Assembly (NCBI GenBank): GCA_035536095.1
Contig: DATLOT010000026.1
Coordinates: 8,244-72,243, forward strand
Source: Gammaproteobacteria bacterium
GTDB lineage: Bacteria; Pseudomonadota; Gammaproteobacteria; DSM-16500
DNA: 64,000 nt
Direction: 5' to 3'
The notes under the pieces: generated by a model
Databases searched by the model: none
What the model was told of the DNA's origin: nothing
Seen by the model: only the letters and a program-made list of their open reading frames with translations
Position numbers and translations under genes: made by a program
Shown: positions 23,544-42,505 of the stretch, piece by piece
Numbering within the stretch: position 1 is the stretch's first letter
How the letters are laid out: each line of letters begins with the position of its first letter

Positions 23544-23960
23544 GGGGGCGACCTGGTTTCGACGTGGGTTGCGAAGCTAAAGGTGCATGTCGAGGATTGT
23601 AGCTGACCTCGTAAAAAATGTTACAAAACAAATAGTTAACAAAAAACGTAAACTCGCTGTTGTTGCTAACGAGCGCTTCATCAAAGAAGCTGAGGTAGCA
23701 AAAGCCGCTTAAAAACCGGCTCGGCGCCATCCACCAATTGTGCTTGTACGATTGGCAGTTTGTGAAAGCAAACGCGGGTGGTCAGAACCTACAAGCTCGC
23801 GAAATGACCCGCCCGAGGTCAAATCGTTAAACCTAGTGGGCTCGCGGCCTAGTACCCTTCTCGTTGGGGACGAAGCGGCTAAATCAAATGACGAGATAAA
23901 CATGTAGACCCAATAGTAGAGGATTTGCGGACGCGGGTTCAATTCCCGCCGCCTCCACCA
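23544..23960 (+). ncRNA. ssrA: tmRNA (about 417 nt)
   Basis: 5' GGGGGCGACCTGGTTTCGAC, 3' GCGGGTTCAATTCCCGCCGCCTCCACCA, tag frame ending ...VAKAA*, downstream of smpB. Confidence 0.95.
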
Positions 23961-24034
23961 AATTTGAGTGCTAGCGCAGTTAGGGATGGTTGTTTGCGCA
24001 AGCACATATCATATGCAAGCATCCTCATGAAACT

Positions 24035-24110
24035 GAACAACGCGCAAAACCGAGCCGCGACCGTGAGGGAGCGTTACTGCGCTATAACTTTCAGCTGAAA
24101 TTTCCTACTT
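24035..24110 (+). repeat. REP-like family 1 copy
   Basis: GAACAACGCGCAAAACCGAGCCGCGACCGTGAGGGAGCGT shared with the ~7467-7505 copy, plus tail CTATAACTTTCAGCTGAAATTT. Confidence 0.85.
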
Positions 24111-24420
24111 AAAATAAAAATTCGGACTCAATATGCTACCCAACCTGCACAGGGATGTTCGGGATCATTTGGCTTGATCAGACCTGCTTTTAGTGAAATG
24201 CTGGCAAACTGTCACCGTTTGAAAATGACCGCTATAGCCCTTCTTTTGATAATGAGTTAATGTATGCATAAATGTTACCATCAAGTTTTCTCATCTTTTT
24301 TTGTGATTTTTCCAATTGCTTCACTGCTTTCACCGCGTCAACAAAATGATTTTGACCTGCCCCGGGATTTTCAAACCAAGCTAGTTTAGAGATAATGCCC
24401 CTCAATTAAGAGGGCATTGT

Positions 24421-24684
24421 ATGAAAAAGAGTCGCTATACAGAAGAACAAATTGTTCGCATTTTACGTGAAACTGATCGAGATTCTATCGCTGAAGTTGC
24501 TAAACGCAATGGTGTTTCAGAAGCATCTATCTATGGCTGGCAAAAACGTTTTGGTGAAATGGAAACCAATGATGTGAAACGCCTCAAAGAGCTCGAGACA
24601 GAAAATGGGCGTCTCAAGAAGCTTCTTGCAGAGCGTGATCTTGCAATCGAGGTAATGAAGGAAATCAACGCAAAAAAATGGTAA
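24421..24684 (+). CDS. IS3 transposase OrfA
   Basis: 'MKKSRYTEEQIVRILRE', HTH, 'LKELETENGRLKKLLAE'. Confidence 0.92.
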   Translation: MKKSRYTEEQIVRILRETDRDSIAEVAKRNGVSEASIYGWQKRFGEMETNDVKRLKELETENGRLKKLLAERDLAIEVMKEINAKKW

Positions 24685-25528
24685 GCGTGCAAGCGCGTAT
24701 GGAACAGGCCTCATATGCAATGCAGCGAGGCCTGAGCCAGCGGATGACTTGTGCGCTGCTTAAAATAAGTCGTTCAAATTTATATTATTCACGTAAGATG
24801 CCATTAAAGGATGCGCCTGTGATTGAAGCAATGAAAGTATTATCTGGAACGTATCCACGATTCGGCTCACGCCGCATACGTATATTCTTGCAACGTGATG
24901 GCATCAACCTTGGTAAGGAGCGTTGCGGACGTTTATGGGCAAAGCAGGACTACAAGTGCCAAGAAAACGTTGTAGAAAACGTGCTGGAACAATAATAAGA
25001 CCATTAGCGCCAACTGCGCGCAATTCAGTGTGGAGTTATGATTTTGTGTATGATAGTTGCGCAAATGGCCAAAAGTTAAAATGTTTAACTGTTGTTGATG
25101 AATACACACGTGAATGCCTAGCGATTGATGTAAATGGCGCTATTCGTTCTTCACGTGTTATAGATGTGCTGAGTAAACTAATGAGGAGTCACGGTACGCC
25201 ACGTTATCTTCATTCCGATAATGGACCTGAATTTGTGAGTAAAGCGCTACTTGAATGGGCAACAAAAGAGTCGTTACAATTAGCATTAATTGAGCCTGGC
25301 AAACCATGGCAAAATGGTACAAATGAAAGTTTCAACGGTAAATTCCGTGATGAATGTTTGTCAATGGAATGGTTCCGTAATCGAATGGAAGCAAAAGTTG
25401 TGATTGAGGATTGGCGCGAACATTATAACGATGTCAGGCCGCATTCCAGCTTGAACTACCAAACTCCTAATGAATTTAAAGTATCATTGGGAAATTATTT
25501 AACAACTGGGGCTGATTTCTCTAATTGA
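24678..25528 (+). pseudogene. IS3 transposase OrfB with an extra frameshift near 24940
   Basis: 'YPRFGSRRI' in one frame; 'AGLQVP...WSYDF...VVDEYTRECL...SDNGPEF...NESFNGKFRDE' DDE core in another. Confidence 0.85.
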
Positions 25529-25698
25529 TTTTGGTACTAAAAAACCGGGCAGGTCAATGGTAGGTGATGGCCGGTTTCCTAGACAGGTTCGCCTAAGCGG
25601 TAGCCGGAGCGTAGCTTGGGTTGAGGCGGGGTAGAGGATTGGATGACAGCGCGGATTGAGGCAAGTCGGAGTACAAAGTAAAACCGCTGGGTCTGCTA

Positions 25699-28600
25699 CT
25701 ACTCTGCAGGCCCATCTTCATGAGTAGTAAAATCAGACAACCAGCAGAATGTGTTAACCAGCTTCATTTGCTCAATTGTTTTGCAGGGAATTTCTAAAAG
25801 GTTTTTATTAACAACCACTACAGCCAAACATTTTGCACGCGATAGCGCAACATTGAGTCTGTTTTTACTATAAAGAAACTCAATATTACGCGGTAAATCT
25901 TCTTCACTAGAAGTTACCATTGATACCAAAACAATGGGCGCTTCTTGTCCCTGGAATTTATCCACGGTGCCGACCCTAGCCCCTGGTGGCAATATAGATT
26001 TCAAATAATTAACCTGAACATTGTAGGGAGTAACGACAAGAATATCATCTTGATTTAGGTCTCGTGTGCCATTTTGATATCTCAGTTTCTGGAGAATTAC
26101 CTGATTATAAAGTTTTTTTATAACGACACCTTCTTCCTCACTTTTTTGTGAACAACCGGTATGATTAGCAGCAACGATATGAATACCTTCAGATGTGATC
26201 CCCTCAATTGGCTTATCAAAAACTAAACATCGTTGTTCATTCCCTGAATCAGCATTTAATCGTCCATCATAAAAAGCAGCTGAGATAAATTTACAAATAC
26301 TTGGGTGTAATCGTCGTGTGTTATTAAGAAAGATTCCTCTTTCTGGTGGGATTGTCGCGTGATCTTCTAGTAGAAATTCCAATATAGATTTACCTGCATT
26401 ACCAGGATGAACGCCTTTAATAGGTTGACCCAGCTGCATCTGATCTCCAACAAGAATAATATTTTTCGCAGCAGTACCCATAACAACAACGTTCGCAATT
26501 GAAACCTGACCTGCCTCATCAACAAAAAGATAATCCAGATGGCTATCAAAACGGTTATCTGAAAACAACCAAGCCGTGCCAGCCAATAGCGCAACGTTTA
26601 GACAATCATCTTTATTTGTTGTTTCACTGCGAATACAGCGCTTAGTATAATGAGTATCTTCGTCATCTTTGCTACCCCACTTAATGCCTGTAAAACTAAA
26701 ATTCTCTTCTAAAGCCACTTCTTCTATCTTGTCCAGTAAATTATGGATTGCTTTATGGGAATTAGCTGTAACCCCAACCTTCTTACCCTGACGAATTAAT
26801 TCTACGATAACATGAGCGCTGGTATGCGTTTTACCGGCACCAGGCGGCCCTTGTATAAAGAGATAGCTTTCATTTAGATTAGCAATCGCTGCAAGAGTAT
26901 TTATTTGAAGTTCGCCGGTACCGACAATTGATTCCCCAGAATTTTTTCCCTTAATTCTTGGAATAGCTTTATTGAGTATATCCAACACCGCCATATATTT
27001 ATGCTGATTTTGAAGAATGCTATCCGCCACTCTATAAATAGCCTCGCGCAATGATTTAGCATCAATCGGATTAGAAGGCCCAATGGACAATCGTTCCGGC
27101 AAACTATCTTTGACACCTCGTTTCAATTTGACTGTGCATTCATCATTATTAAGCTCTACGATAGTACCAGCGGCTTTCATAGTGGCAACATTAACAACGC
27201 TATCATAACAATTAAATTTATATTCTTGCGGTAGAAAATGATAAGTATAAATCAATGATCGCTTCTCAGGCATCGGTTTACCCATTAAGGTCAAACCTCC
27301 TAAACATTCCGGATCATCGATAAGCTCATATTCAAACTTATCTCGTCTTTCAAAGCTGGCCCACCATTGCGGTTTGTTTTCTCGGCGGTGAAATTCCAAC
27401 AAAGAAAATAATAATTCCCTTAATGGCTTTTCGTCCTCACTCACACCGTCAAGCAGCCGATGGCGATAGGATTCATATTCAACTTCCCAATCTTTTCTCT
27501 CTAGAACTGTTTCATTTTCTGTGTTGTTATTTTTTCCAGTAAACCATGGCATATCGCTGGATCGTAAACTTAACAACCAGTCCCGTAGTTTGAGTGTGGA
27601 AACACAATCAATTTCGTTATATGCAGCTATTTCATCTAACAGTTTTTGATCTTTCGTTTCGCACCAAAGGTTATAAACCACAATACTATCGGTAGCTGTT
27701 GCAACTGAGCCTTCTCGCTTTTCCATATAGAACGTTTCAAGATTTTTAATTGAATATCCAGGTTCCGATGTTCTAATACTTTCACGAACCACTTTGTATA
27801 AATCAACAAATTTATCTTGGCGCAGCAAATTATCTATTTGTTCTTCTGCTATTCCATATCTACAGGCAAGCCTTTTTAGAGCAGATGTTTCGTAATGATT
27901 ATAATGATAAATATGTGCGTTGGGATACACTTGTATGTGATCGCCAATAAATGTCATAAATTCTTTGAAAGTTTCCCGTTCCTGCTCATGATTATGCGCC
28001 CAGAAAGTTTTAAAAATATAACTTCCTTGAGTGACGAAATAGATACCAAATAAATACTCAAGACCATTGGGATAAAGTGGATCACCTTCCATATCAAAAA
28101 AGATATCGCCCGTATCCGGTTTTGGCATGCGCTCAAATCCACACCCTGGCAAAGACGTTAATATTTCATACTTATTCTCACCAGTTCGTAACTTATGTAT
28201 CTGTAAATTGGCTTGAGCTTGCAATCTTTTGAAAACATCTGGATTTAACTCAGATACAATTGTATCAGCAGCTAACGAAGCCAAATCAGAAACTGTTTTT
28301 ATCTGTGCTTTTTCTAATTTATCGATTTGTGATCGTTGAATGTTAGCTACAAGACTAAGATGATTATCAGACTCCCATTGCTCAATACAATGATCTCGCC
28401 AATGACATATCGAACAATGTTTACAAGGTTCTGGATAAGAATGAACAGGTGGCGATGCCATGTATGACTCAAACTGATGCTTTGCTTGCAAGTAGTAAAA
28501 TGAAAAATCATCAAACTTAAAAGATACCTGCTTTCCATCACCCAACACTAAGTGCATCAATTCCGGCTTAACACCTTGAGCATCTTCAAGCAAACTAGTA

Positions 28601-29067
28601 TATGCACATAATTGCATAATATGCTTGGGCTTAGGATTTCTTGCAAGCTTAGTATCGACCACTTCATAACTGAAAGAGCCAAATCTGGAAGGTTTGTCAA
28701 TTTTTATTAAGAAATCTGCATCTCCACGCCAAGGATGTTTATAAAACACACCTTGATAGACAACAGCGGCACCTGATTGCAATGCTTCTTTAGTAAGTTT
28801 CACCCTCTCACCAAGATCCAGGTCTTTAGGAATTTGAAAAATCGTTTTACCTTGCTTTCCTAAAGACTCAAGGTAATCAGATTCATGTTGATGGCCTTTT
28901 TCCTTCAATAGCTTACTGACAGAAGAATCCTCTGATTTGAGAATTTTATCTGCAAGATTGTGGAAATCAAGAAAAGTGAGATGATGACATTCTAGGAAAT
29001 TCACCAAATCTGATGCCGAAAATAAATACTGACCATCATTATTTTTTTGCACGATAAATACCCTCAT
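25699..29067 (-). CDS. TM0106-family RecB-like nuclease / RNase H-like / SF1 helicase fusion
   Basis: 'GDADFL..YEVVDTKLA..QLCAY', Cys cluster 'CKHCSICHWRDHC', 'FFDMEGDP..YNEIDC', 'QGPPGAGKT', 'DEAGQ', 'GTVDKFQGQE', 'RLNVALSRAK'. Confidence 0.88.
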   Translation of the reverse strand: MRVFIVQKNNDGQYLFSASDLVNFLECHHLTFLDFHNLADKILKSEDSSVSKLLKEKGHQHESDYLESLGKQGKTIFQIPKDLDLGERVKLTKEALQSGAAVVYQGVFYKHPWRGDADFLIKIDKPSRFGSFSYEVVDTKLARNPKPKHIMQLCAYTSLLEDAQGVKPELMHLVLGDGKQVSFKFDDFSFYYLQAKHQFESYMASPPVHSYPEPCKHCSICHWRDHCIEQWESDNHLSLVANIQRSQIDKLEKAQIKTVSDLASLAADTIVSELNPDVFKRLQAQANLQIHKLRTGENKYEILTSLPGCGFERMPKPDTGDIFFDMEGDPLYPNGLEYLFGIYFVTQGSYIFKTFWAHNHEQERETFKEFMTFIGDHIQVYPNAHIYHYNHYETSALKRLACRYGIAEEQIDNLLRQDKFVDLYKVVRESIRTSEPGYSIKNLETFYMEKREGSVATATDSIVVYNLWCETKDQKLLDEIAAYNEIDCVSTLKLRDWLLSLRSSDMPWFTGKNNNTENETVLERKDWEVEYESYRHRLLDGVSEDEKPLRELLFSLLEFHRRENKPQWWASFERRDKFEYELIDDPECLGGLTLMGKPMPEKRSLIYTYHFLPQEYKFNCYDSVVNVATMKAAGTIVELNNDECTVKLKRGVKDSLPERLSIGPSNPIDAKSLREAIYRVADSILQNQHKYMAVLDILNKAIPRIKGKNSGESIVGTGELQINTLAAIANLNESYLFIQGPPGAGKTHTSAHVIVELIRQGKKVGVTANSHKAIHNLLDKIEEVALEENFSFTGIKWGSKDDEDTHYTKRCIRSETTNKDDCLNVALLAGTAWLFSDNRFDSHLDYLFVDEAGQVSIANVVVMGTAAKNIILVGDQMQLGQPIKGVHPGNAGKSILEFLLEDHATIPPERGIFLNNTRRLHPSICKFISAAFYDGRLNADSGNEQRCLVFDKPIEGITSEGIHIVAANHTGCSQKSEEEGVVIKKLYNQVILQKLRYQNGTRDLNQDDILVVTPYNVQVNYLKSILPPGARVGTVDKFQGQEAPIVLVSMVTSSEEDLPRNIEFLYSKNRLNVALSRAKCLAVVVVNKNLLEIPCKTIEQMKLVNTFCWLSDFTTHEDGPAE

Positions 29068-29117
29068 TCATCAGTGGCATCCTTTCTGTAAAAATTACAA
29101 AAATAAATTAATAATTT

Positions 29118-32100
29118 TTACTCGCTAATAATTTTCTTTATTAGCGCATCTAATTTAGTAACCTCGCTTTTCCAATCTTTAGACCAATCTTGAGACCACA
29201 CCCTAGCGATTTTCCACCCACGCGACTCCAAAAGCTCCTGCCTAATTTTGTCTCTATCACGAGCATAAGGAGTAGAGTGAAACAAAGCTCCGTCACATTC
29301 TATACCTAAAATAAAATTTGAAGGTATGACAGGATGATGAACTCCGAGATCAATGTAAAAACCACTGGAACCAATTTCAGGAGAAATTTTGTAGCCCAAA
29401 TCTTCTAATCGACGATGAACATCTTTGCTGAAATTACTCGACTTACGAGTGGTGATTGCGCCGCCGACTCCAAATGATTCAAGAATTGCTTTTGCATCAA
29501 GATAATTTTTTTCACTAATAGCATTAGCATATTTTAAATATCGTCCAAACAAGACTAAATCAGGATTCTTTCCAAAGTCCTTTTCTTCTGTAGGTATTTG
29601 ATTAGGGTCAAAGGAGCAGAAAACTTCGATTTTTTGTTTTGCCCTTGTTATTGCAACATTAAGTCGACGACCGCCACCTTGCTTAGAAAGAGGGCCAAAA
29701 TTCATATATACTTTTTTACCTGGTGAGGATGGCGCATACCCTACCGAAATCAAAATAATATCCCTTTCATCACCCTGAACATTTTCTAAATTTTTAATAA
29801 AAAAACTAGCGTCTGCTTCACCATCAAAATAATTTCTTGCGCGCTCAATATCATTCTTAAAATTTATATCTGAAAGCTGCTTTCTTTCAATTGCATCTTC
29901 AATTGCCAGCATTTGTGACTGCCCCATCGCAATTATACCAAATGATTTATTAGGAATCATTTTCAATAACTCAGCGAGTCTATTCACAACAACTCCAGCT
30001 TCTACTACATTTCCATTTTTTTGGCTAAAATACGCATCTTTAATTTTATGAAACTTAATTACATCACCCTCAGTAATAAAATAAGGATTAGGAACAGCGA
30101 TCAATCGACCGCCATAAAAAGCCCTATTTGAGAAGGCAATAAGAGATTCAGATCGGCTTCTATAATGCCACTCTAATATCTCAGAAGGGTAGATTTGTGA
30201 CGCCAAATCTAAAATACTTGCTGTTAACTCTGCCTCATTATCATCATCGTCATCATCAATAAATTCACTAGCAGAGAAAAAATTTGTAGGCGGCATTTGT
30301 TTAGGATCACCAACAACAACCATAGAACTTGCTCTATAAATAGAGGGAACAGCATCTTCGACCCTCACTTGAGATGCCTCATCAAATATGATTATATCGA
30401 AAAGTCCCATTTGAATCGGCAAAACCTGGCTGATACTTAATGGACTCATTAACCAACATGGCTTGAGTTTAAGCATAGTAGAGAGGGCACCCTTCTCCAT
30501 TATCTCACGAGGCGGTAAAACCTTACGCTGCTTATTTGCCTCTCGCTTAAGTAAGCTAAGACCTTCAAATTCACCAATACCTTTCTTCCATCTTTTTGAG
30601 AAAGTATTATTTACGAAATCACGCGCTGAATGCCTATGACTATCCTCAATTCTCTTAAATTGCTCAATTTTTTTATGAAAAACATCTTTATCAAAATTAC
30701 GCAACTCTGGATTTTGAGTAATGCTTTCATCGAGCCACCACTTCATGACAAGAGATAGCACGTATGAACCCCAAGGACTCTCAATAGACACAAGATTATC
30801 AACGAGTATTTGCTTTGAAAAATCAGTTTTTATATTTAAGCGAAGATTTTCCAAGCATAAATCCACCTTATCAAGAAGTTCAAGATCATCTATTGTTTGA
30901 ATAAGAAGATCATAAGGAAAAAAATCATTATTTTTTATTTCTAGTTGCGGAGATCTCTCAAAATAATTGTACAGCTCATTTTTATATTGACCTAATATGT
31001 TAATATTTTTTTCCAGATCAGATTTGAGGTGTGAAATCTCCAAAATTAATTTCTTTATTTCACCACTAGATTCGGCAGTATAATTTATAAATTTAGCTTG
31101 ACTCAATAATCCTAAATTTTTGACTATAGCCCCAGTTTCAGAGACGATTTTTATAATTGGAATTATTGTTTGACACGTATCTATGACCAATTGTGGATTA
31201 GCTTCTTCTAAGGCTACAGGAATCAACTTATTCTGCGTTATTGCTTTAAATGACTTAATCGCTTCACAAACTAATCGATAAGCTTTAAAGGCTTTATTTG
31301 TCCCATCCCATTTAGACTGAAGATATTGACAGCGATAATTACGCATTCTCCAGAAGGTAGGCGAACACCAATCAACAAGCCCATGCTTTAATGAATAATA
31401 TGATTCAAGCTGTCTTACTAGCTCAATGTCAGCATCAAGCTTGATTTGATCAAAATATAACTTTTCGCTTTCAATGATTTTTATAATTTCATCTATTTCT
31501 TTCTGATAAATAGGCAACCCAGCCTGGTCAGAGTAAAACAGATTAGAAAAACTCATCCATTCGGGAGGAATAGTTGACTTAATAATTTCATCTAAAACAC
31601 TTGCTGATGGAATAGAGTCAATGTTATTGATTCCCAAATCAATAATCTTTTTTTCCAACTCATTTACAGTCTTTTCAGACTGTTTTATTTTATCTATCAA
31701 ATCTGTGATTGATTGCGAGAAACTCGTTGTTAAAATAGTATCCTTTTTTCTATAAAGCCAAGGATGCGTCGGAAAGTTGGGAACCTTTTTTACTTTATCT
31801 TGTAACTCGTCGAGTATTGAACAACTCTGCTGCAAATCTGCAAAAGAACACTCAGAAAATTGTTTTGCTAAGGCAATATTAACCTTATCAACTGCAAATT
31901 GAGCGTATATCGATAGTAAATCTGAAATAGATAAACCACTAGGATTGTGCTTTGATTCAAGAACTCGATAATAATTATTTATTTCTGCTTTTAACTTGTC
32001 AAATTCATCAGTAATTAAATCCCATTGCTGATCGGTACTAGTATCATGCACTGAATCCGAAAGCTCTAAAAATGAATTATAAAGATTTTGCTTATTTAAG

Positions 32101-33398
32101 TCGCTGCTATGAATAAGAACGGCTTGAGAAACAAGATTAGCCTGTTGTAACCGAGAATAAACAACATCGAGAGCAGCTCTTTTTTCTGAAACAAATAATA
32201 CTTTCTTCCCTTTTGCCAATGCTTCTGCAATTAAATTTGTAATAGTCTGGCTCTTTCCAGTACCTGGTGGCCCTTGAATCACCACAACTTGACTTTTTGT
32301 TGTTTGATCTATTGCTCTGTGCTGAGAGGAATCGATATTTACTACAAAATGATTTTCTTTTTCTTTGTATCCATCAAGCATTTTTATTCGTTCATGATCA
32401 TCGCCTCTATCATTTGGTATTGGCTTTCCCAGAAACAGTTCCGATAAAATCGGATGCATTTCTGTTTCTTCAAGAATAGAATCATAATCGCGTAAAAGAA
32501 CAGTACGACTAGCATTTAAATGGTCAATAAGGACGATATCAATTAAATAAAATTGATTGTTTGTTACCTTGTTATAAAGCTCGTACTCTTTTTTTGAAAG
32601 CACTTCTTCGATATTAACCGGAATCCTATCAATTATTTCTCCTTGCTCATCTTTGACAATTTTAAATCGTGGAGGAATTTTAGGAAGCGCATCAGAAAAA
32701 GAATTTTCGATACTAAGTGTTTTCCCTGCATCCTCAAGATAACGTTTAAGCTCTTCAAGTGCATCCGACACCTGATCTGATTCAAACCGCTCAGGAAGTT
32801 GAATTCCCCACTTTTGACGAAGTGCAAGCCTAAGAGAAGAGTTAAGCTGGAGTGAATTATCTTCTAGTTTAAGACTCCAACGCTTTCTCTTATCTTTTGT
32901 GATATCCACCGCAATTTTAAATACAGGTGAAATTAAAAAATCTTCTGGTTTATAGGTAGTCGTATCTCTCCAGCAAAGAAATGGCCCAAGAAGCCAAGCA
33001 CCAGAAATACCATACTCTCGCTGAAATTTATCATCCGCAAGCCGTACTTTATCTAGCCGTTTAATTAAATCTGCATTATTGGTTTCATCCAATAAAAAAT
33101 GTTTGCTAAGATCAAGGACAGATTCATTAAGTAATTCCTGAAACCGTGGCATCATGGTGCGTAAGGGTACAAATTTTTCTAAAATCAGATCGTCAAATTC
33201 TTCATCTACTTTTGGATTTTTAGATAGGTTAATACAATGTCCACGGCTTTCTCGATAGTAAAGTTCTTTATTTCGACGTGACAAGTTGGCGAGGAGATCT
33301 CGATATCGTAATATTTGGCGCCTTATAAAATCTAGGACTGACACAGAGGTTTCCTCTAACCTATTGGATATTCTTGTATTATATATTAGCGGGCGCAA
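29118..33398 (-). CDS. DUF4011-like / SF1 helicase / Vsr-like (MTES_1575-type) endonuclease; Hhe-like anti-phage protein
   Basis: 'LLANLSRRNKELYY', 'QGPPGTGKSQTI', 'VSEKRAALDVV', 'CWLMSPLSISQ', 'DEASQ', 'HYRSR', 'ENVQGDERD', C-terminal 'IDLGV..GIECDG..FHS..ARDRD..RQ..LE.RGW..RVWSQDW'. Confidence 0.82.
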   Translation of the reverse strand: MRPLIYNTRISNRLEETSVSVLDFIRRQILRYRDLLANLSRRNKELYYRESRGHCINLSKNPKVDEEFDDLILEKFVPLRTMMPRFQELLNESVLDLSKHFLLDETNNADLIKRLDKVRLADDKFQREYGISGAWLLGPFLCWRDTTTYKPEDFLISPVFKIAVDITKDKRKRWSLKLEDNSLQLNSSLRLALRQKWGIQLPERFESDQVSDALEELKRYLEDAGKTLSIENSFSDALPKIPPRFKIVKDEQGEIIDRIPVNIEEVLSKKEYELYNKVTNNQFYLIDIVLIDHLNASRTVLLRDYDSILEETEMHPILSELFLGKPIPNDRGDDHERIKMLDGYKEKENHFVVNIDSSQHRAIDQTTKSQVVVIQGPPGTGKSQTITNLIAEALAKGKKVLFVSEKRAALDVVYSRLQQANLVSQAVLIHSSDLNKQNLYNSFLELSDSVHDTSTDQQWDLITDEFDKLKAEINNYYRVLESKHNPSGLSISDLLSIYAQFAVDKVNIALAKQFSECSFADLQQSCSILDELQDKVKKVPNFPTHPWLYRKKDTILTTSFSQSITDLIDKIKQSEKTVNELEKKIIDLGINNIDSIPSASVLDEIIKSTIPPEWMSFSNLFYSDQAGLPIYQKEIDEIIKIIESEKLYFDQIKLDADIELVRQLESYYSLKHGLVDWCSPTFWRMRNYRCQYLQSKWDGTNKAFKAYRLVCEAIKSFKAITQNKLIPVALEEANPQLVIDTCQTIIPIIKIVSETGAIVKNLGLLSQAKFINYTAESSGEIKKLILEISHLKSDLEKNINILGQYKNELYNYFERSPQLEIKNNDFFPYDLLIQTIDDLELLDKVDLCLENLRLNIKTDFSKQILVDNLVSIESPWGSYVLSLVMKWWLDESITQNPELRNFDKDVFHKKIEQFKRIEDSHRHSARDFVNNTFSKRWKKGIGEFEGLSLLKREANKQRKVLPPREIMEKGALSTMLKLKPCWLMSPLSISQVLPIQMGLFDIIIFDEASQVRVEDAVPSIYRASSMVVVGDPKQMPPTNFFSASEFIDDDDDDNEAELTASILDLASQIYPSEILEWHYRSRSESLIAFSNRAFYGGRLIAVPNPYFITEGDVIKFHKIKDAYFSQKNGNVVEAGVVVNRLAELLKMIPNKSFGIIAMGQSQMLAIEDAIERKQLSDINFKNDIERARNYFDGEADASFFIKNLENVQGDERDIILISVGYAPSSPGKKVYMNFGPLSKQGGGRRLNVAITRAKQKIEVFCSFDPNQIPTEEKDFGKNPDLVLFGRYLKYANAISEKNYLDAKAILESFGVGGAITTRKSSNFSKDVHRRLEDLGYKISPEIGSSGFYIDLGVHHPVIPSNFILGIECDGALFHSTPYARDRDKIRQELLESRGWKIARVWSQDWSKDWKSEVTKLDALIKKIISE

Positions 33399-33645
33399 TC
33401 ATTCCTCTTGAAAAACACTACTGATATTTGCATGCCTATAGTCGGCACTAGAACCCCCCGCATGGTAAATTATAAAAACCTAAATTATTCAAAGACTTAA
33501 AATATGCCATCAGAATGAGCATCGACAACTATCGCTTATTTGTACAATTTTTCAACTGAATTTTAATTTCATGACTAACGCTATTTCCCGACTTCATATA
33601 GGAAATGCTGTATGACGGCCAAGAGAAATTGAGTAACTTATGACC

Positions 33646-33899
33646 GAGCAACGGCGAGCAACGGAGTCAGGCTTGCATAATCAACAACGGGGTCAGGCTT
33701 GCATAATTGTACATTCAATCAACGGGGTCAGGCTTGCATAATTGTACATTTACACTAGCAACGGCAACGGGGTCAGGCTTGCATAATTGTACATTTACAC
33801 TTATTGCAGTAAACGCTTGATAGTATTAAATCTGAAAATACAATTATACAAGCCTGACCCCGTCTCATGACCCCGTCTCACAAGCCTGACCCCGTCTCA
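33646..33899. repeat. MITE/REPIN-like element (family 2) with nested tandem end copies
   Basis: Core 33765-33866 has 25-bp TIRs ACGGGGTCAGGCTTG(C/T)ATAATTGTA; three progressively longer left-end copies precede it and two right-end copies follow. Confidence 0.88.
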
Positions 33900-33970
33900 A
33901 AAAATAGCACCTCCTTTATTGATACTTATAGTCCGTGGTTTTATAAGTATTTGGCGCATATCCTACATTA

Positions 33971-34168
33971 ATGTGCAAAAAACATCCAGCACTTATTAAG
34001 TTGGGCAAAAGAATAAGAGAACTCCGAAAAGAAAAGGGGTTTTCTCAAGAAGACTTTGCCTATGAGGTTGGTTTGGATAGGACTTATATGGGTAGCGTGG
34101 AGAGGGGCGAGCGTAATATTGCAGCTATAAACTTAATTCGTATCGCCAAAACGCTTAAGGTCGAGTAA
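33971..34168 (+). CDS. XRE-family HTH regulator, C-terminally truncated by a 10-bp duplication
   Basis: 'LGKRIRELRKEKGFSQEDFA..GLDRTYMGSVERGERN'; TAAGGTCGAG duplicated at 34156-34175. Confidence 0.85.
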   Translation: MCKKHPALIKLGKRIRELRKEKGFSQEDFAYEVGLDRTYMGSVERGERNIAAINLIRIAKTLKVE

Positions 34169-34275
34169 GGTCGAGGTTGGTGCTCTCTTTCCTTCAATTA
34201 GAGGACTTGATTAGCGCAACTGAGCAGGCAAGTTCACAGTAATTAAAAAAATGTTAGCATCTGTCTGCTCAAAAA

Positions 34276-35871
34276 CTACCCACTTTTGTCGGCAGGTTTA
34301 TATATATGTGCAGCAATTCCCATGCAGTAGATTTCTAGCAACTCATCTCTGCTTTTGTTGTTAAGCTCGTTTATATCGTAATGTGTGCATAGTCGCTTAA
34401 TAAGTTCTTCTTTAGCTAATTTATTGAATCCCTTCATAGCAAAATCAAATGCATCTAATGGGCTTTTTAATCCTCGCGGCACTTCTTGATATTCGCCAAA
34501 AAAAGTATCAGGTGATTTTTCATACGCGCTGATCTCATCATCGGATAATGGAAGATTTACAATAAAACACTTTCCGCTATGGTCTGAGCATATGCCTGTG
34601 GCAGTTTTATTCTTTATGTTAACTACGGCATTTTTTAGCGTAACAATAAAGTTTTTTCCTTCTTGATCGGATAGTTCGTATTTCTCACCATATAGCAATC
34701 GATTGTGCTTAAGTTCAGTCAGTGTTCCGTCAAATGTATCGGGTATCACGGTATGTGCTTCTATTGATTCCCATAATTTATGAATTGGCGCATGTTTTTT
34801 TCTGTCCGCTATAAGTTGAGCTAAAGTTCTTTTTTTGAAACCATAATCATCCATATTAAAACCGTCACTAAAATACAATGGATTCTGAGATGGACCATCT
34901 AGATTGTAATGATATGGGTGGTTAGTTAAAAACACATATGCACTTTTATCCAAGTTAGTCTTTGTGCTCACATTAGAATGTTCAAGTTTTCTAAGTTGTT
35001 TAGCTAGAATCTCCCCACTAAATTTGGCGGCTTCAATAAATGGCAGATTGATATCAACAAATATCACACGCTCATGTTTAGCTTCCTTAGCCAAGGCTTT
35101 ATTAATTGGGCCGCCGATATCAAGCTTTAAATTAGGAGAGCCATCATGGGAAAAACCATCGTTTAACCTATGCCTGTATTTAGCCTCAACTGAAAAACTT
35201 TGGCCAGTTTCAGTGTGAATTGCGATAAATTCACAGTGGGTGCTTTTTTTATCTGATTCATTTTCAAAATTTATTACATAACCAGCTTTTATGAAGATTG
35301 CTGCCACAAATGTTTCATAGTATGCACTAGCAAATTGCTCTTTATTCTTGAGTCGTTTGATTAATAGTTCTAACAGTTCGGCGTTGTGAGAGATTAAATA
35401 TAAATTATACGAAAGCCACATAAAAACAGAAACAGCACCTGTATATGGCGCAGATACTTTTCCTTCAACTTTTTCCAGGGTGGCCCTATATGCCACAAGA
35501 GAATCGTATGCTCTGATAAGCGGATGTTTGAACTCATCTGTATCGCTTCTCTGTTCATCATGCCATTTCTGTCCAAAAAGAGAGAGAAGGTGTGAATATA
35601 AGAAATCGTGGAAAGTCTCCCATTTTCCTGTGTACATTCGATTGCCGACAATTACCACCCGGTGATTTTCAACAGCAGCTGAGATGATTGGCTTGCCCCA
35701 TCCTTGTTGTTTTTTTCTTCGTATTTCTTCTGCTTGTTTACGCTTAATTATTTTTTGAACATTTTTATCTAAAATAATTTTATTCAGATTGCCATGGCAG
35801 CGCTTAAATTTAATGCCGCTGCCACATGGGCAACGCTCATTTCTACCTATTTTTATTCCTTGATATCTCAA
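34276..35871 (-). CDS. SEC-C motif protein with putative PD-(D/E)xK-like nuclease domain
   Basis: 'GRNERCPCGSGIKFKRCHG' SEC-C motif; 'CEFIAIHTETGQSFSVEAK' nuclease-like motif. Confidence 0.7.
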   Translation of the reverse strand: MRYQGIKIGRNERCPCGSGIKFKRCHGNLNKIILDKNVQKIIKRKQAEEIRRKKQQGWGKPIISAAVENHRVVIVGNRMYTGKWETFHDFLYSHLLSLFGQKWHDEQRSDTDEFKHPLIRAYDSLVAYRATLEKVEGKVSAPYTGAVSVFMWLSYNLYLISHNAELLELLIKRLKNKEQFASAYYETFVAAIFIKAGYVINFENESDKKSTHCEFIAIHTETGQSFSVEAKYRHRLNDGFSHDGSPNLKLDIGGPINKALAKEAKHERVIFVDINLPFIEAAKFSGEILAKQLRKLEHSNVSTKTNLDKSAYVFLTNHPYHYNLDGPSQNPLYFSDGFNMDDYGFKKRTLAQLIADRKKHAPIHKLWESIEAHTVIPDTFDGTLTELKHNRLLYGEKYELSDQEGKNFIVTLKNAVVNIKNKTATGICSDHSGKCFIVNLPLSDDEISAYEKSPDTFFGEYQEVPRGLKSPLDAFDFAMKGFNKLAKEELIKRLCTHYDINELNNKSRDELLEIYCMGIAAHIYKPADKSG

Positions 35872-36118
35872 ATTGCGATCTCCCGCAAAATTAAACTGAT
35901 AAGCTTAAAAAGATTAATCGTGTCTTTGCTATACGCCGGAACCGACATTAAGAATGCAGATAAAACTTGATGCTACGATCCATTTTTTTATTGTTATTTT
36001 GCACTAAAGATGGTCGACGATTTTATCGATTGCTTCTACGCAATTTGCTCTATACTCTTCTTTGACCTGCACACGATGCCCATTAACTGATTGCTTTCCT
36101 GCTGCTAGTTTTGAAAAA

Positions 36119-36249
36119 CAACGGGGTCAGGCTTGCATAATTGTACATTTACACTTATTGCAGTAAACGCTTGATAGTATTAAATCTGAAAATACAATTA
36201 TACAAGCCTGACCCCGTCTCAAGCCTGACCCCGTCTTTGACCCCGTCTC
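36119..36249. repeat. MITE/REPIN-like family 2 copy
   Basis: 36119-36220 is identical to 33765-33866; followed by two truncated right-end copies. Confidence 0.9.
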
Positions 36250-36421
36250 CATGCTGCAACCCGGTTGCATGTAATAGTTTACATTTTTGACTAGTGAAAT
36301 ATTCACGTATTAGATATGTCTTGCCAACGCGTCTTCGTCCATAAACAACCAAGAACTCAGCTTCTTGAGAATTATAAATTTTATCAAGGAGCTTTAACTC
36401 TTTTACTCTGCCAATAATCAT
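36250..36421 (-). pseudogene. N-terminal fragment of an archaeal-type (ATPase_2-like) ATPase, interrupted by the family 2 repeat
   Basis: 'MIIGRVKELKLL..LVVYGRRRVGKTYLI' Walker A, then reads into the repeat. Confidence 0.8.
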
Positions 36422-36566
36422 ATCTCATCCTAGCTGGGCCACTTATAGGAATCTTATAAGCGGCCCACTTACTTTATCGAATCCCTCATAGAATTTGATT
36501 CCCCAACTCGCACGTATATAACTATTTGCTTATATTGAAAAATTTATTTTGATACCTCCATCGAAC

Positions 36567-36613
36567 GCTGATTTCTCTAATTGATTTTGATACTAAAAAA
36601 ACCGGGCAGGTCA
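36567..36613 (+). mobile_element. Solo right end of the IS3 element
   Basis: GCTGATTTCTCTAATTGATTTTGATACTAAAAAAACCGGGCAGGTCA matches 25511-25556 with 1 substitution and 1 extra A. Confidence 0.85.
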
Positions 36614-36752
36614 CTTCTCTCCTGCCTTCTTTTTGAACTGTCCGGAAATTCCGGATAGTTGCCTCTTCATCCAAGACACAAGCAATAAAGGGTAAGTAAA
36701 TTAAAATTTAATGCTATACTTAAACGATTACACCAAATAACAGGACGTTATT

Positions 36753-36947
36753 ATGAATAAAAATATTCCCTTAATAACAGCAGGCTTTATTTTTCTCCTA
36801 GTCGCCATCGCCCATATCGTTCGCCTCTATCTGCATATAGAAATAATCGTATCTGGTCACATTCTCCCCTTGAGTGTCAGTATATTTGGGTCCATCCTCT
36901 CATTCATACTGTCTATCTGGATGTTTCTATCGAGCAGGAGAGGATAG
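36753..36947 (+). CDS. Small two-TM membrane protein
   Basis: 64 aa, two hydrophobic segments, GGACG RBS-like site. Confidence 0.65.
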   Translation: MNKNIPLITAGFIFLLVAIAHIVRLYLHIEIIVSGHILPLSVSIFGSILSFILSIWMFLSSRRG

Positions 36948-37093
36948 AACAAAAAATAATCAATTTAATCTCAAGCCACTCGAGAGTTCTCCGAGCTTTC
37001 AAATAACGGTCAATTTATTGAAGCTCTGCCAGGACATTTAAATTACTCACAAGAATACGAAGATCGAAAAGAAATAGTTTTAAGGAGTTACTA

Positions 37094-37831
37094 ATGCAAT
37101 TTATATATCATATTGAAGGTATGCATTGTGAAGCATGCGTTGAAAAAATCAAATCTGCCTTATCTCCTCATTTTATAATCAAAGAAATCACCCTTAGCCC
37201 ACCCATCTTAAAAATTGATACTGATAATCCACCACTACTGAATGATATAAATAATAGGATATCATTGGCAGGTAAATATACCTTGCATCCAACCATGGAA
37301 AGTTCGCCTTCTTCGGCCAGCAATCCACAAATCGGATTTCGTGCTTACTTTCCAATATTTTTAATTGCGGCTTATATTTTTGGAGTAGCTACTATCAATA
37401 ATTTCAATGGTCAAGAAATAAATTGGCAAGGATGGATGAACCACTTCATGGCTGGTTTTTTCTTGGTATTTTCTGCTTTTAAGTTTTTAGACCTTCCTGG
37501 TTTCGCAGACGGCTATGCTACCTACGATATATTAGCACGACGCTGGCACATGTACGGCTACATATATCCTTTTTTAGAGTTAGGTTTAGGTGTTTTGTAT
37601 TTAACACAATGGGCACCAACAGCAACACAGGTCACAACCATTATTATTATGGGATTTTCCAGTATTGGCGTAATAAACAGTTTACTCAAAAAACAAAAAT
37701 TCCAGTGCGCATGTTTAGGCACACTACTTAAAGTTCCTCTCTCGCGCATTACTTTGGTCGAAGATTTAATCATGGTGGCATTAGCAGCATTATCATTAAT
37801 GCTGCATAAAATCATTTACTTCCTGAAATAG
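37094..37831 (+). CDS. HMA domain + MauE/DoxX-like membrane protein
   Basis: 'EGMHCEACV' metal-binding loop; 'FADGYATYDILA', 'YPFLEL', 'CACLGT'. Confidence 0.8.
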   Translation: MQFIYHIEGMHCEACVEKIKSALSPHFIIKEITLSPPILKIDTDNPPLLNDINNRISLAGKYTLHPTMESSPSSASNPQIGFRAYFPIFLIAAYIFGVATINNFNGQEINWQGWMNHFMAGFFLVFSAFKFLDLPGFADGYATYDILARRWHMYGYIYPFLELGLGVLYLTQWAPTATQVTTIIIMGFSSIGVINSLLKKQKFQCACLGTLLKVPLSRITLVEDLIMVALAALSLMLHKIIYFLK

Positions 37832-38867
37832 TGAACAAGCCAATGATACCGACGATGTACACCAGAAGCACCACGATTGAATCAATCCCCAGACAGAATA
37901 GCTGCCGTTTAGGACGAAAGATTAGCCCGTAAATATAAATAGCTGTCAAGAGCGCCCCCAAGCTAGCAAGATAGATATCTGTGCCTTGCGCATAGGGAAG
38001 CACAGATACCCCCGAAAGAAGGGTCGCTAATAAAAAAAGAGTGGGTAGAAAAGCATTGCCACCAAAAATGTCGCTAAACGCAAGCGTGTAATCACCAATT
38101 TTAACTGCAGCCAATCCTGTTGAAACTTCTGGAAGCGCTGTAGCTGCTGCCAATATAGTGGAGCCAAAAAGAACACCGCTCCAACCAGTATTAGCAGCAA
38201 TAGCACTACCACTCTCTTCGAGGACAACACCAGCTGCTAAGGTAGCCAATGATGCAAAAATAAAAACCAGAAGGACACGCATCGTGCTCCACTTTTTTAT
38301 CCTCTCTTGACTACGAGTCTGCTTAGGACGCAAAGTATCAGGGGCATGACCTTTCTCATGCCAAGGGAGACCCTGCCGCGCTTTATTGATCAACCAAAGA
38401 CCGATGAGCCAAGTGGCAACTATCAACAGATCACCAGGGGCAAGCCGCGCAACTAAGATAGCTCGAGGTAGTTCAGCCCCCATGATAGAGATAACGAGAA
38501 CACAAATAACAAGAATCCCTTCAAGCACAAGCTGTAAAGAAGCGGCTTGATAGGTTAATGCGGCTTTTTGACCTAATCCGAAGCCATCCAAAATGACAAG
38601 CACCACTGTTTGGATAGCAATTCCGCCCAGAATATTTCCAATAGCAATACCAATATGATGTGTCAAAGAAGCACTAACAATAATAGCAATTTCAGGAAGA
38701 TTCGTTGCAACAGCAAGAAAAATAAGACCGCCAAGCGCTTCTCCAAAACCAAAACGCCAGTCAATCGTGTCCGTGGCATTGGAAAGCTGTATGCCAGCAA
38801 TCCATACAATCGCTGCCGCTACAATAAAGATAGGAATTAATAGCGTCAAAGCCAATGATGCAAACAT
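37812..38867 (-). CDS. Sodium/calcium exchanger family (CaCA) antiporter
   Basis: Two alpha repeats 'LAVATNLPEI' and 'AATALPEVS..GGNAF'. Confidence 0.88.
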   Translation of the reverse strand: MFASLALTLLIPIFIVAAAIVWIAGIQLSNATDTIDWRFGFGEALGGLIFLAVATNLPEIAIIVSASLTHHIGIAIGNILGGIAIQTVVLVILDGFGLGQKAALTYQAASLQLVLEGILVICVLVISIMGAELPRAILVARLAPGDLLIVATWLIGLWLINKARQGLPWHEKGHAPDTLRPKQTRSQERIKKWSTMRVLLVFIFASLATLAAGVVLEESGSAIAANTGWSGVLFGSTILAAATALPEVSTGLAAVKIGDYTLAFSDIFGGNAFLPTLFLLATLLSGVSVLPYAQGTDIYLASLGALLTAIYIYGLIFRPKRQLFCLGIDSIVVLLVYIVGIIGLFTISGSK

Positions 38868-39070
38868 AGTTTCGCCCTTTTGCTATGCACTTTATCAGAG
38901 TATATCTCAAATATCTTACTGTCATCTATTGCAATATTGGCCTTATTTATATTGTAAATAAGGTTTTTTTTATTTACACTACATCCTATGATGCCAGATA
39001 GATACCCAACATCCAATATCTTTTAGGAGCATTATTGGGGGCACTAGCGACTAATGAGAAAGGACTGAAA

Positions 39071-40441: not shown

Positions 40442-40480
40442 TTTGGTAAGCACTCCTTAAATTAGTACACCACGTAAGAA

Positions 40481-40598
40481 GAGAATTGGGGTCAGGCTTG
40501 AGAATTGGGGTCAGGCTTGCATAATTGCACAGTTACACTTATTGCATTAAGTGCCTGATAGCATTGGATGTGGAATACAATTATGCAAGCCTGACCCC
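40481..40598. repeat. Diverged family 2 MITE/REPIN copy with 19-bp tandem left end
   Basis: GAGAATTGGGGTCAGGCTT x2, then GCATAATTG...TACAATTATGCAAGCCTGACCCC; interior similar to the 33765 core. Confidence 0.85.
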
Positions 40599-40714
40599 AT
40601 TTACTCAGCTTTTTGAGAATGATAAATCTTATCAAGAAAAAATAACATATGTCTATTCAACGCAAATACGGAATCAATTTCTCTCACGCACCTACGGTGC
40701 TTGACATAGTGGGT

Positions 40715-40763
40715 TGCTTAACAAACCCCCGACTGCGCGCACTGCGTGCGCTTACCGGGGGCT
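40715..40763. repeat. GC-rich palindrome (REP-like hairpin)
   Basis: CCCCCGA-C-T-GCGCGCAC-T-GCGTGCGC-TT-A-CCGGGGG imperfect nested stem; single copy in the window. Confidence 0.45.
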
Positions 40764-40967
40764 ATAAAACTTTCAGCCGTAAACGGCCTGATTGCGTCAT
40801 CATTTTATGCGGCACACATAACACATAGCCACTTTTGAGTTTTTTACGGTAAAAAAGCATATTACTGCATTCGGCGAAACTGAATACCACGGGATGAGCG
40901 AACGCGGTAGCCAATAGCTAAAATCCTATCCAAATTATAGTGCATTAGCGAACGTTGAACCTGTCTT

Positions 40968-42227: not shown

Positions 42228-42263
42228 GCTATCCTCGTATTGTATTATAAATTGATTTTTGAC

Positions 42264-42297
42264 AGTATAGTCATGGCAACCTTAAGGAGTCCTTAAT
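42264..42297 (-). promoter_or_regulatory. PmrA-like box plus -10 element
   Basis: Minus strand aTTAAGgac-tc-cTTAAGgtt-8 nt-TATACT. Confidence 0.6.
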
Positions 42298-42505
42298 AAC
42301 CGGCTCATTTCACGACAAAATTTGCATCTATTATAGTCGCCATGCTGTATGAATATACTATTCCTTAAGTTAGCGCCATTATTAAAGCCTAGTGTTGAAA
42401 ACACCATATTTGAAATATCATTATTAATCAATATATTATATAGTTAGTGTGATTAGCGCCGCCAAATCAAAACCCTACGCAGTTGGAGATGGTTGACTCC
42501 GTGCC

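What the first reader, a model, noticed from the sequence alone, without database searches (positions are those of the whole stretch)
24353..36613. 12.3-kb defence block bracketed by an IS3 left end and a solo IS3 right end
Seen: a full IS3 at 24353-25556, and a 47-bp near-identical copy of its right end at 36567-36613 in the same orientation. The left IR at 24353 and the distal right IR therefore enclose both helicase-nucleases, the XRE and the SEC-C gene. No target-site duplication flanks either pairing. Inference: this is a composite-transposon-like unit mobilisable in trans, or a scar of IS-mediated assembly; either would explain an integrase-free island at ssrA.
Basis: partly seen in the sequence, partly recalled or inferred. 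Interest (0 to 1): 0.62.

Follow-up and report, generated by a model that had tools for sequence, protein, structure and literature searches.

The report
Dead IS3 scars in decayed island
The insertion sequence and the 47-base copy of its right end are both real, but they are wreckage in a decaying integrase-type genomic island next to the tmRNA gene, whose integrase was deleted at the element's edge, and not a transposon carrying the defence genes; this is ordinary.

Summary
A 1204-bp IS3-family (IS407-like) element lies at 24353-25556. A 47-bp copy of its right end lies at 36567-36613 in the same orientation (45/47 matches, E about 1e-13). Neither pairing of ends has a target-site duplication, although three intact relatives of this IS each have a perfect 4-bp one.

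The element is the only copy in the genome. Its transposase gene carries a 1-nt deletion ahead of the catalytic domain, so no transposase is available in cis or in trans.

The IS right end abuts the C-terminal half of an alpA gene (25557-25681). In two species of the same genus the order downstream of the tmRNA gene is ssrA, P4-type integrase, alpA, on the same strand. The block therefore reads as cargo of a classical integrase/AlpA island, and an IS-associated deletion removed the integrase and the first half of alpA.

The 47-bp piece is the stump of another copy; a 19-bp stump lies on another contig. Homologous helicase-nuclease genes elsewhere have other boundaries. The locus is identical in two other metagenome assemblies with DNA, and a third shows the same gene order. 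The finding is ordinary.

The parts
23544..23960 (+). ssrA (tmRNA gene), the integration site of the island
   Evidence: Rfam RF00023 at 183 bits; ARAGORN
23961..24352 (.). 392-bp spacer between ssrA and the IS left end. It contains one copy of a genome-wide ~63-bp interspersed repeat (24048-24110). It holds no integrase or alpA 5' remnant.
   Evidence: Six-frame translation; BLAST
24353..25556 (+). IS3-family (IS407-like) insertion sequence, the only copy in the genome, defective. OrfA is 24421-24684, the A7 slippery run is 24672-24678, and orfB is split into 24678-24995 and 24923-25528 by a 1-nt deletion between 24940 and 24941.
25557..25681 (+). alpA pseudogene. Only the C-terminal half is present (Pfam Phage_AlpA positions 25-51). 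It begins exactly at the IS right terminus and has its own frameshift near 25631.
   Evidence: Pfam PF05930 at 29.6 bits, E 6e-7; whole-genome scan hit; alignment to AlpA of G003 and G010
25699..29067 (-). 1122-aa TM0106-type RecB-like nuclease fused to an SF1 (AAA_11/AAA_12) helicase; island cargo
   Evidence: TIGR03491 at 312 bits; Pfam RNase_H_2, AAA_12; PADLOC MkoA-like
29118..33398 (-). 1426-aa protein with DUF4011, an SF1 helicase and an MTES_1575 endonuclease domain (PDC-S37 / Hhe / ProA-like); island cargo
   Evidence: PADLOC PDC-S37 at 818 bits; NCBIfam ProA at 768 and Hhe at 610 bits, both below cut-off
33765..33867 (.). 103-bp palindromic repeat element (copy 1), preceded by nested partial copies at 33656-33756
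   Evidence: the repeat finder D1/D2
33971..34168 (+). XRE-family HTH regulator
   Evidence: Pfam HTH_3; PADLOC control protein
34276..35871 (-). 531-aa protein with an N-terminal SEC-C zinc motif
   Evidence: Pfam SEC-C
36119..36221 (.). 103-bp palindromic repeat element (copy 2), 100% identical to copy 1. It cuts off the ATPase gene to its right.
36155..36421 (-). N-terminal fragment (about 58 aa of about 470) of a PDC-S27 / ATPase_2-type ATPase gene; a pseudogene
   Evidence: Pfam ATPase_2 positions 4-43 of 225; PADLOC PDC-S27 positions 4-58 of 474; paralogues on C4 and C10
36567..36613 (+). Solo right end (IRR stump) of the same IS family, 45/47 identical to 25511-25556. It begins within the last six codons of orfB.

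Best explanation
The region is a decayed integrase/AlpA-type genomic island inserted at the 3' end of ssrA. It is the same class as E. coli CP4-57 and P4-like elements.

Its original left part was ssrA, then a P4-type integrase, then alpA, then cargo. The two helicase-nuclease genes and the XRE/SEC-C module are cargo.

An IS407-like IS3-family element inserted into alpA. A later event had one endpoint exactly at the IS left terminus and removed about 2 kb, comprising the integrase and the first half of alpA. That event was either recombination with a second nearby copy or an adjacent deletion. It left one IS whose two flanks do not belong together, hence no 4-bp duplication.

The 47-bp right end at 36567-36613 is the stump of another copy whose body was deleted. 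A 19-nt stump on contig C47 is a further one.

The surviving IS then lost its transposase to a 1-nt deletion. Nothing here can transpose at present.

Shown directly:
- the ends and the lack of TSD;
- the frameshift;
- single-copy status;
- the alpA remnant;
- the int-alpA order in congeners;
- fixation of the structure.

Inferred: the order of events and the deletion mechanism.
For: 1. The alpA C-terminal half starts at the first base after the IS right terminus (PF05930 positions 25-51, 29.6 bits against a cut-off of 21). It aligns with the second half of AlpA from the congeners' ssrA islands.
2. G010 has ssrA at 789676-790673(-), an intact P4-type integrase at 788410-788883(-) and alpA at 787188-787337(-). 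G003 has ssrA at 60107-60526(+), int at 61312-61794(+) and alpA at 62713-62862(+). In both, the order and strand match the window.
3. The middle of alpA lies 2.26-2.4 kb after ssrA in those genomes. Only 392 bp separate ssrA from the IS here.
4. Three of three intact related IS copies have a 4-bp TSD, and this copy has none.
5. No alpA 5' half or integrase remnant exists left of the IS or anywhere in the genome.
6. A single-base deletion in orfB is seen relative to two relatives. The same sequence is found in the independent JGI assembly that covers the IS (L052: 0 mismatches, and the only gap lies elsewhere).
7. The genome has only one full copy, two right-end stumps and no left-end stump.
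8. Other decay lies alongside: the ATPase gene is truncated by a 103-bp repeat, and one population carries a 25-bp deletion in the Hhe-like gene.
Against: - No attR (a repeat of the ssrA 3' end) was found in the window or the genome, so the right edge of the island is undefined.
- The congeners are distant (ssrA 72-79% identical) and share no cargo or downstream synteny. The int-alpA ancestry therefore rests on the 41-aa alpA remnant plus positional analogy.
- No close relative with an intact version of this island was found.
- The order of events cannot be tested from one fixed structure.
Confidence: 0.75

Rival explanations
1. This is a composite or non-autonomous transposon. The left IR of the IS and the distal solo right IR define a 12.26-kb unit. 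It transposed as one piece, or can still be moved by a cognate transposase supplied in trans, and that is how the defence genes came to lie beside ssrA.
For: - The two outer ends are in the correct relative orientation.
- The 47-bp stump retains the entire IR-homologous stretch, including the terminal CA.
- Related IS copies with 91-92% identical ends are multi-copy in congeners G019 and G001, and intact in G012, so a cognate transposase exists in the genus.
Against: - No 4-bp TSD flanks the outer ends (ATTT versus CTTC), while 3 of 3 intact relatives have one.
- The resident transposase gene is frameshifted and there is no second copy.
- The alpA remnant inside the unit lies downstream of ssrA in exactly the orientation expected for an in-situ integrase island. 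That would be a coincidence if the unit had transposed in.
- Homologues of the cargo elsewhere have no IS3 ends.
- There are no structural variants among the independent assemblies of this population.
Confidence: 0.07
2. This is IS-mediated assembly. The helicase-nuclease block was recruited next to ssrA from a plasmid or another locus, by cointegration or recombination between IS copies. The island never had its own integrase.
For: - The closest annotated relatives of the IS are on Legionella pneumophila plasmids.
- The closest cargo homologues sit in Legionella ICEs and next to Tn3 or IS66 elements.
- The block has low GC, 31-40% against 42.5% for the genome.
Against: - The alpA remnant is contiguous with the cargo and correctly placed and oriented relative to ssrA.
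- Congeners show that ssrA is used by int-alpA islands.
- One cargo homologue (P0003) also lies in an AlpA-type element. The integrase-type origin is therefore sufficient and more economical.
Confidence: 0.08
3. These are unrelated events. The integrase and the alpA 5' half were lost by an ordinary deletion, and the IS inserted afterwards. The missing TSD reflects later point changes.
For: Flank decay is plausible in a genome with many pseudogene fragments. Two of the four flank bases match (ATTT versus ATGG).
Against: The deletion endpoint would have to coincide to the base with the IS right terminus inside alpA. The surrounding sequence is otherwise 100% conserved between samples, so there is no sign of rapid local drift.
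Confidence: 0.07

Closest known systems
IS3-family insertion sequences of the IS407 type (copy-out/paste-in; OrfA plus an OrfAB fusion made by -1 frameshifting)
   Same: It is 1204 bp long with TG...CA termini starting TGACCTGCCC and imperfect IRs of about 40 bp. OrfA has an HTH domain, there is an A7 slippery run, and orfB has rve/rve_3 domains. Relatives make 4-bp TSDs. Nucleotide matches are to 'IS3 family transposase' genes on Legionella pneumophila plasmids (70.7% over the full length) and to many Burkholderia plasmids. The link to IS407 itself is from memory: I recall it as a Burkholderia element with these termini and a 4-bp TSD.
   Different: This copy has an extra 1-nt deletion in orfB, has no TSD, and is single-copy. 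No named ISfinder entry could be checked.
Solo IS-end relics beside defence or accessory genes, as noted elsewhere in this scan for IS911 and IS2 ends in E. coli islands and plasmids
   Same: It is a short stump that keeps only the terminal IR, is fixed in the population, and lies in a patchwork island. It sits with a second IS of the same family nearby, which gives a deceptive composite-transposon look.
   Different: Here the stump and the full copy are demonstrably the same IS type and in direct orientation. The full copy also marks the deletion that removed the island's integrase.
Integrase/AlpA islands at ssrA or tRNA genes (E. coli CP4-57; P4-like satellites, PMC8628076; defence hotspots in P4-like satellites, PMC9122126)
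   Same: It lies immediately 3' of ssrA, has an alpA gene downstream on the same strand, and carries anti-phage-type cargo. Congeners have a P4-type integrase plus alpA, and one also has a P4-alpha-like primase.
   Different: There is no integrase, only half of alpA, no primase, no psu/sid/delta genes, and no detectable attR. It is a remnant and not a functional element, and it cannot be called a P4-like satellite.
Composite transposons and non-autonomous IS derivatives (mobile insertion cassettes, transporter IS; from memory)
   Same: Cargo lies between a left and a right IR of one IS type.
   Different: There is no TSD, no working transposase in the genome, and no second occurrence of the unit.

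Membership tests
IS3 family insertion sequence | DDE (rve) transposase preceded by an HTH OrfA, joined by a programmed -1 frameshift | tested here: met
   HTH_Tnp_1 at 65 bits; rve at 80.7 and rve_3 at 100 bits; NCBIfam transpos_IS3 at 184 bits against a cut-off of 160. OrfB is in the -1 frame, and the A7 run is at 24672-24678.
IS3 family insertion sequence | Terminal imperfect inverted repeats ending TG...CA | tested here: met
   IRL starts TGACCTGCCCCGG and IRR ends CCGGGCAGGTCA. The ends are similar over about 40-47 bp.
IS3 family insertion sequence | Short target-site duplication (4 bp for this type) | tested here: not met
   The relatives have GCAT, GTAG and ATTT duplications. The window copy has ATTT versus ATGG. 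This is read as a secondary rearrangement and not as a reason to exclude it from the family.
IS3 family insertion sequence | Uninterrupted OrfAB reading frame (an active element) | tested here: not met
   A 1-nt deletion lies between 24940 and 24941, relative to the G012 and G029 copies. OrfB is split into 105-aa and 201-aa ORFs.
Composite / trans-mobilisable transposon | Left and right IS ends in proper orientation around the cargo | tested here: met
   IRL at 24353 and IRR ending at 36613, in direct orientation relative to the full IS.
Composite / trans-mobilisable transposon | Target-site duplication flanking the outer ends | tested here: not met
   ATTT on the left and CTTC on the right.
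Composite / trans-mobilisable transposon | A source of cognate transposase in the cell | tested here: not met
   There is one frameshifted copy only, with no other full or partial transposase copy in the 64 contigs. The assembly is 96% complete, so this is not absolute.
Composite / trans-mobilisable transposon | The same unit with the same boundaries at another locus or in another genome, or excised circles | tested here: not met
   Cargo homologues at 68-76% identity lie in other contexts: the loci with DNA (L044-L050) hold no IS3 ends, and the one context without DNA shows no IS3-type gene. The assemblies of the same population carry the identical locus.
Integrase/AlpA-type island at ssrA (CP4-57 / P4-like class) | Lies directly 3' of ssrA or a tRNA gene | tested here: met
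   ssrA ends at 23960 and foreign, low-GC DNA follows.
Integrase/AlpA-type island at ssrA (CP4-57 / P4-like class) | Tyrosine integrase next to the attachment site | tested here: not met
   No PF00589 hit in the genome and no tblastn hit. It is present at this position in congeners G010 and G003.
Integrase/AlpA-type island at ssrA (CP4-57 / P4-like class) | alpA regulator/excisionase gene downstream of int | tested here: inconclusive
   Only the C-terminal half survives, with a frameshift (PF05930 at 29.6 bits).
Integrase/AlpA-type island at ssrA (CP4-57 / P4-like class) | Direct repeat of the ssrA 3' end (attR) at the far edge | tested here: not met
   No match longer than 10 nt in the window. 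A 14-nt hit on C51 lies inside a coding region.
Hhe / ProA anti-phage helicase-nucleases | Score above the NCBIfam equivalog cut-off | tested here: not met
   ProA at 768 bits against 1500; Hhe at 610 bits against 2000. The best model is PADLOC PDC-S37 at 818 bits. It is a relative, not a member.

The most novel reading that the evidence does not exclude
The dead IS and the intact distal right end together form a 12.3-kb non-autonomous transposable unit, in effect a giant mobile insertion cassette. Transposases of the still-active sister elements in related species could move the two helicase-nuclease defence genes as one piece. The lack of a TSD would then reflect only later rearrangement at the left end.
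Probability: 0.07. Interest if true: 0.4.

Novelty: new member of a known kind. Interest (0 to 1): 0.15.

Why it matters
It matters little beyond correct annotation. It shows how an island at ssrA can come to look integrase-free: the integrase was cut away at the edge of an insertion sequence. It also shows how one full IS plus a stump of another can mimic a composite transposon around defence genes.

For anyone mining this genome, the practical points are these:
- The defence block is immobilised cargo of a dead island.
- The block is itself beginning to decay, with a truncated ATPase gene and a 25-bp deletion allele of the Hhe-like gene.
- The IS is a pseudogene.

Tried and rejected
- **attR search.** I looked for a repeat of the ssrA 3' end in the window and the genome and found none. 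The only 14-nt hit is in a proline-rich coding region on C51.
- **Synteny with congeners, to find the empty site and the right edge of the island.** Twenty kb downstream of ssrA in 8 relatives shares no gene with the window apart from a weak XRE hit. The Na/Ca-exchanger neighbourhood in G008 and G017 is not syntenic. The THI5-like gene is only 25-28% identical in relatives. The right edge stays undefined.
- **Remnants of integrase or other island genes.** tblastx and blastn of the non-coding stretches (23961-24352, 33399-33970, 35872-36566, 36614-37093) against all fetched loci found nothing. ORFs of the congeners' islands searched against the window also found nothing.
- **Exact-pattern scans** for the alpA remnant in genome contigs and metagenome contigs gave 0 hits. 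The search for related loci with the 1426-aa protein gave 0 confirmed loci.
- **The gap in the ~63-bp genome-wide repeat** (none between 24110 and 47387) was tested as a marker of recent acquisition. About 6% of inter-repeat gaps are 18 kb or longer, so the evidence is too weak to use.
- **An 18-nt similarity to the IS** on C4:22875-22892 lies inside an ATPase paralogue and was rejected as chance (17/18, E 0.27).
Full report
**Observation**

The window carries a complete IS3-family element at 24353-25556 (1204 bp). It starts TGACCTGCCCCGG and ends CCGGGCAGGTCA.
- OrfA (24421-24684) matches HTH_Tnp_1.
- The downstream frame matches rve and rve_3, and NCBIfam transpos_IS3 at 184 bits against a cut-off of 160.
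- An A7 slippery run at 24672-24678 lies at the orfA/orfB overlap.

A 47-bp copy of the right end lies at 36567-36613 in the same orientation. It has one substitution and one extra A.
- BLAST E is 1.7e-13 against the whole 1.80-Mb genome.
- The terminal 13-mer occurs three times in the window against 0.07 expected.
- The 47 bp span the entire stretch over which the left and right ends resemble each other, so the stump is a complete IR. It starts inside the last six codons of orfB.

**Target-site duplication**

I calibrated the expectation on relatives. Three intact copies of the same IS type (two in G012, one in G029) each have a perfect 4-bp duplication: GCAT, GTAG and ATTT. In the window the full element is flanked by ATTT and ATGG. 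The left end plus the distal right end is flanked by ATTT and CTTC. Neither pairing is a simple insertion product.

**State of the IS**

The G012 copies (76% identical, four copies) have a continuous 292-aa orfB. The window copy is split into two ORFs (24678-24995 and 24923-25528). Alignment with two relatives places a single-base deletion between 24940 and 24941, upstream of the DDE domain.

The JGI metagenome assembly that covers the IS (L052) has the same sequence with no mismatch. A third assembly, for which no DNA was available, shows the same split gene calls. So this is not an error of one assembly.

BLAST of the IS against all 64 contigs finds the following:
- this single full copy;
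- the 47-bp stump;
- one further 19-nt right-end stump at C47:27780-27798;
- no left-end stump.

The IS is assembled through in long contigs (88 kb here, 80 kb and 23.5 kb in the JGI samples), as expected for a single copy. The genome therefore has no source of cognate transposase.

The closest annotated matches are 'IS3 family transposase' genes on Legionella pneumophila plasmids (70.7% over the full length), and many Burkholderia plasmids also match. Together with the 4-bp TSD and the TGACCTGCCC termini, this fits the IS407 group. That group assignment is from memory and was not checked against ISfinder.

**What the IS abuts**

The 125 bp immediately after the right terminus (25557-25681) translate to MVGDGRFPRQVRLSGSRSVAWVEAG and, after a frameshift, VEDWMTARIEASRSTK.
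- This matches the C-terminal half of Pfam Phage_AlpA (positions 25-51, 29.6 bits against a cut-off of 21, E 6e-7).
- It is the only AlpA hit in the genome.
- It aligns with the second half of the AlpA proteins of two congeners.

The first half of alpA is not on the other side of the IS, nor anywhere else.

**Congeners**

In G010 the order is:
- ssrA at 789676-790673(-);
- an intact 401-aa P4-type integrase (Arm-DNA-bind_3, Phage_int_M, Phage_integrase);
- a DUF6387 gene;
- alpA at 787188-787337(-);
- a DUF3631 gene.

In G003 the order is:
- ssrA at 60107-60526(+);
- a truncated integrase;
- alpA at 62713-62862(+);
- a P4-alpha-like primase;
- further on, a HerA-like ATPase and a D12 methyltransferase.

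So in this genus ssrA receives islands that begin int then alpA, on the strand of ssrA. The window's alpA remnant has that position and strand.

The middle of alpA lies 2.26-2.4 kb after ssrA in those genomes. In the window only 392 bp separate ssrA from the IS. The window's genome has no tyrosine-recombinase hit at all and no tblastn match to the congeners' integrases.

**Reading**

The block is cargo of a classical integrase/AlpA island at ssrA.
1. An IS407-like element inserted into alpA.
2. A later event with one endpoint exactly at the IS left terminus removed the integrase and the first half of alpA.
3. That left one IS with mismatched flanks.

For a copy-out/paste-in IS, the simplest route for step 2 is a local second insertion followed by homologous recombination between the two direct copies. 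This step is inferred, not shown.

The 47-bp stump and the 19-nt stump on C47 are what deletions left of other copies. The C47 stump lies between broken ORF fragments, next to a HicAB pair and a STAND-type NTPase gene.

The neighbourhood shows more decay:
- The gene next to the 47-bp stump (36155-36421) is only the first 58 or so residues of a PDC-S27/ATPase_2-type ATPase of about 470 aa. It is cut off by a 103-bp palindromic repeat.
- One metagenome population carries a 25-bp deletion (31202-31226) that splits the Hhe-like gene.

**The composite-transposon reading**

In its favour:
- The two outer ends are correctly oriented.
- The stump is a whole IR.
- Active sister elements exist in congeners: G012 has intact copies, and G019 and G001 have multi-copy ends 91-92% identical.

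Against it:
- There is no TSD.
- There is no transposase in the cell.
- The unit does not occur a second time.
- The alpA remnant would have had to land beside ssrA in the right orientation by chance.

The closest homologues of the 1426-aa protein (68-76% identical) lie in other settings:
- next to housekeeping genes;
- as cargo of Legionella pneumophila and L. qingyii conjugative elements, the latter beside an integrase and an HTH_17 gene;
- in an AlpA/DnaB-type element with AbiEii;
- beside a Tn3 transposon, where a TM0106-type helicase is its convergent neighbour.

None of the homologous loci for which DNA was held (L044-L050) contains these IS ends. The context came without DNA, and its gene list shows no IS3-type transposase.

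Two assemblies of the same population (JGI samples 3300032421 and 3300033412) are identical to the window across the parts of the region they cover. L052 spans 21181-43344, taking in the IS, the alpA remnant and the 47-bp stump, and differs only by the 25-bp deletion. L051 spans 27121-43344. A third sample (3300045391) shows the same gene order. The structure is therefore fixed, with no empty or alternative form.

**Limits**

- No attR was found.
- The congeners are too distant (ssrA 72-79% identical, no shared cargo or downstream gene order) to define the island's right edge.
- Low GC continues to about 37.4 kb and returns at 38.8-40.2 kb, over the photolyase gene. Foreign DNA therefore probably extends beyond the stump. 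If so, the stump is internal to the variable region and not its border.
The IS and cargo homologues point to Legionella-like relatives, but that is not established for the host.

**Verdict**

The mechanism proposed is only partly right: this is IS scarring of a dead integrase-type island, not a transposon or IS-built island. This is a common kind of debris. Earlier notes of this scan on other genomes reached the same kind of conclusion for IS911 and IS2 stumps; those notes are not independent evidence. Interest is low.

Noticed in passing
window 33765-33867 and 36119-36221 (also 33656-33756 and 40481-40605): Two 100%-identical 103-bp palindromic elements flank the XRE plus SEC-C module in direct orientation, and nested partial copies lie beside them. 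A diverged third copy follows the photolyase gene. Only these three long copies exist in the genome; short partial copies lie on C48 and C49.
   Followed up: partly
window 24048-24110, and about 238 loci genome-wide: A ~63-bp interspersed repeat (GCAAAACCGAGCCGCGACCGTGAGGGAGCG...) occurs about once per 7.6 kb. It sits at many contig ends, so it is probably what fragments the assembly.
   Followed up: partly
window 31202-31226: One JGI metagenome population (sample 3300033412) carries a 25-bp deletion between CTT microhomologies. It splits the Hhe-like helicase-nuclease gene into 712-aa and 690-aa ORFs. The rest of the 22 kb is identical.
   Followed up: yes
whole genome G000: There is no Pfam Phage_integrase (PF00589) hit anywhere in the 96%-complete assembly, not even a Xer-type recombinase, while the ten congeners searched have 1-19 hits.
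   Followed up: partly
G000:C47:27780-27798 (L049 8780-8798): A second right-end stump of the same IS (19 of 19 nt) lies between broken ORF fragments. It is just downstream of a HicA/HicB pair, and a 1298-aa NB-ARC/STAND-type protein gene lies about 2.4 kb upstream.
   Followed up: partly
L050 10001-17692 (JGI 3300007245 contig): A 69%-identical homologue of the Hhe-like gene lies next to a TM0106-type RNase_H_2/SF1 helicase gene, as in the window, but convergent instead of co-directional. A Tn3 transposase and a LegC2/C7-type effector gene are nearby. In the other four homologue contexts the Hhe-like gene has no such partner.
   Followed up: no
window 19930-21231 (-): An AAA_14 plus DUF4143 ATPase matches PADLOC candidate PDC-S01 at 363 bits. 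It lies on the core side of ssrA, upstream of fur.
   Followed up: no
window 38800-40441: The photolyase gene has 30-32% GC against 42.5% for the genome. Compositionally foreign DNA therefore continues to the right of the solo IS end.
   Followed up: no
window 23544-23960: The tmRNA gene is long (417 nt), and ARAGORN predicts an unusually long 30-residue tag peptide.
   Followed up: no
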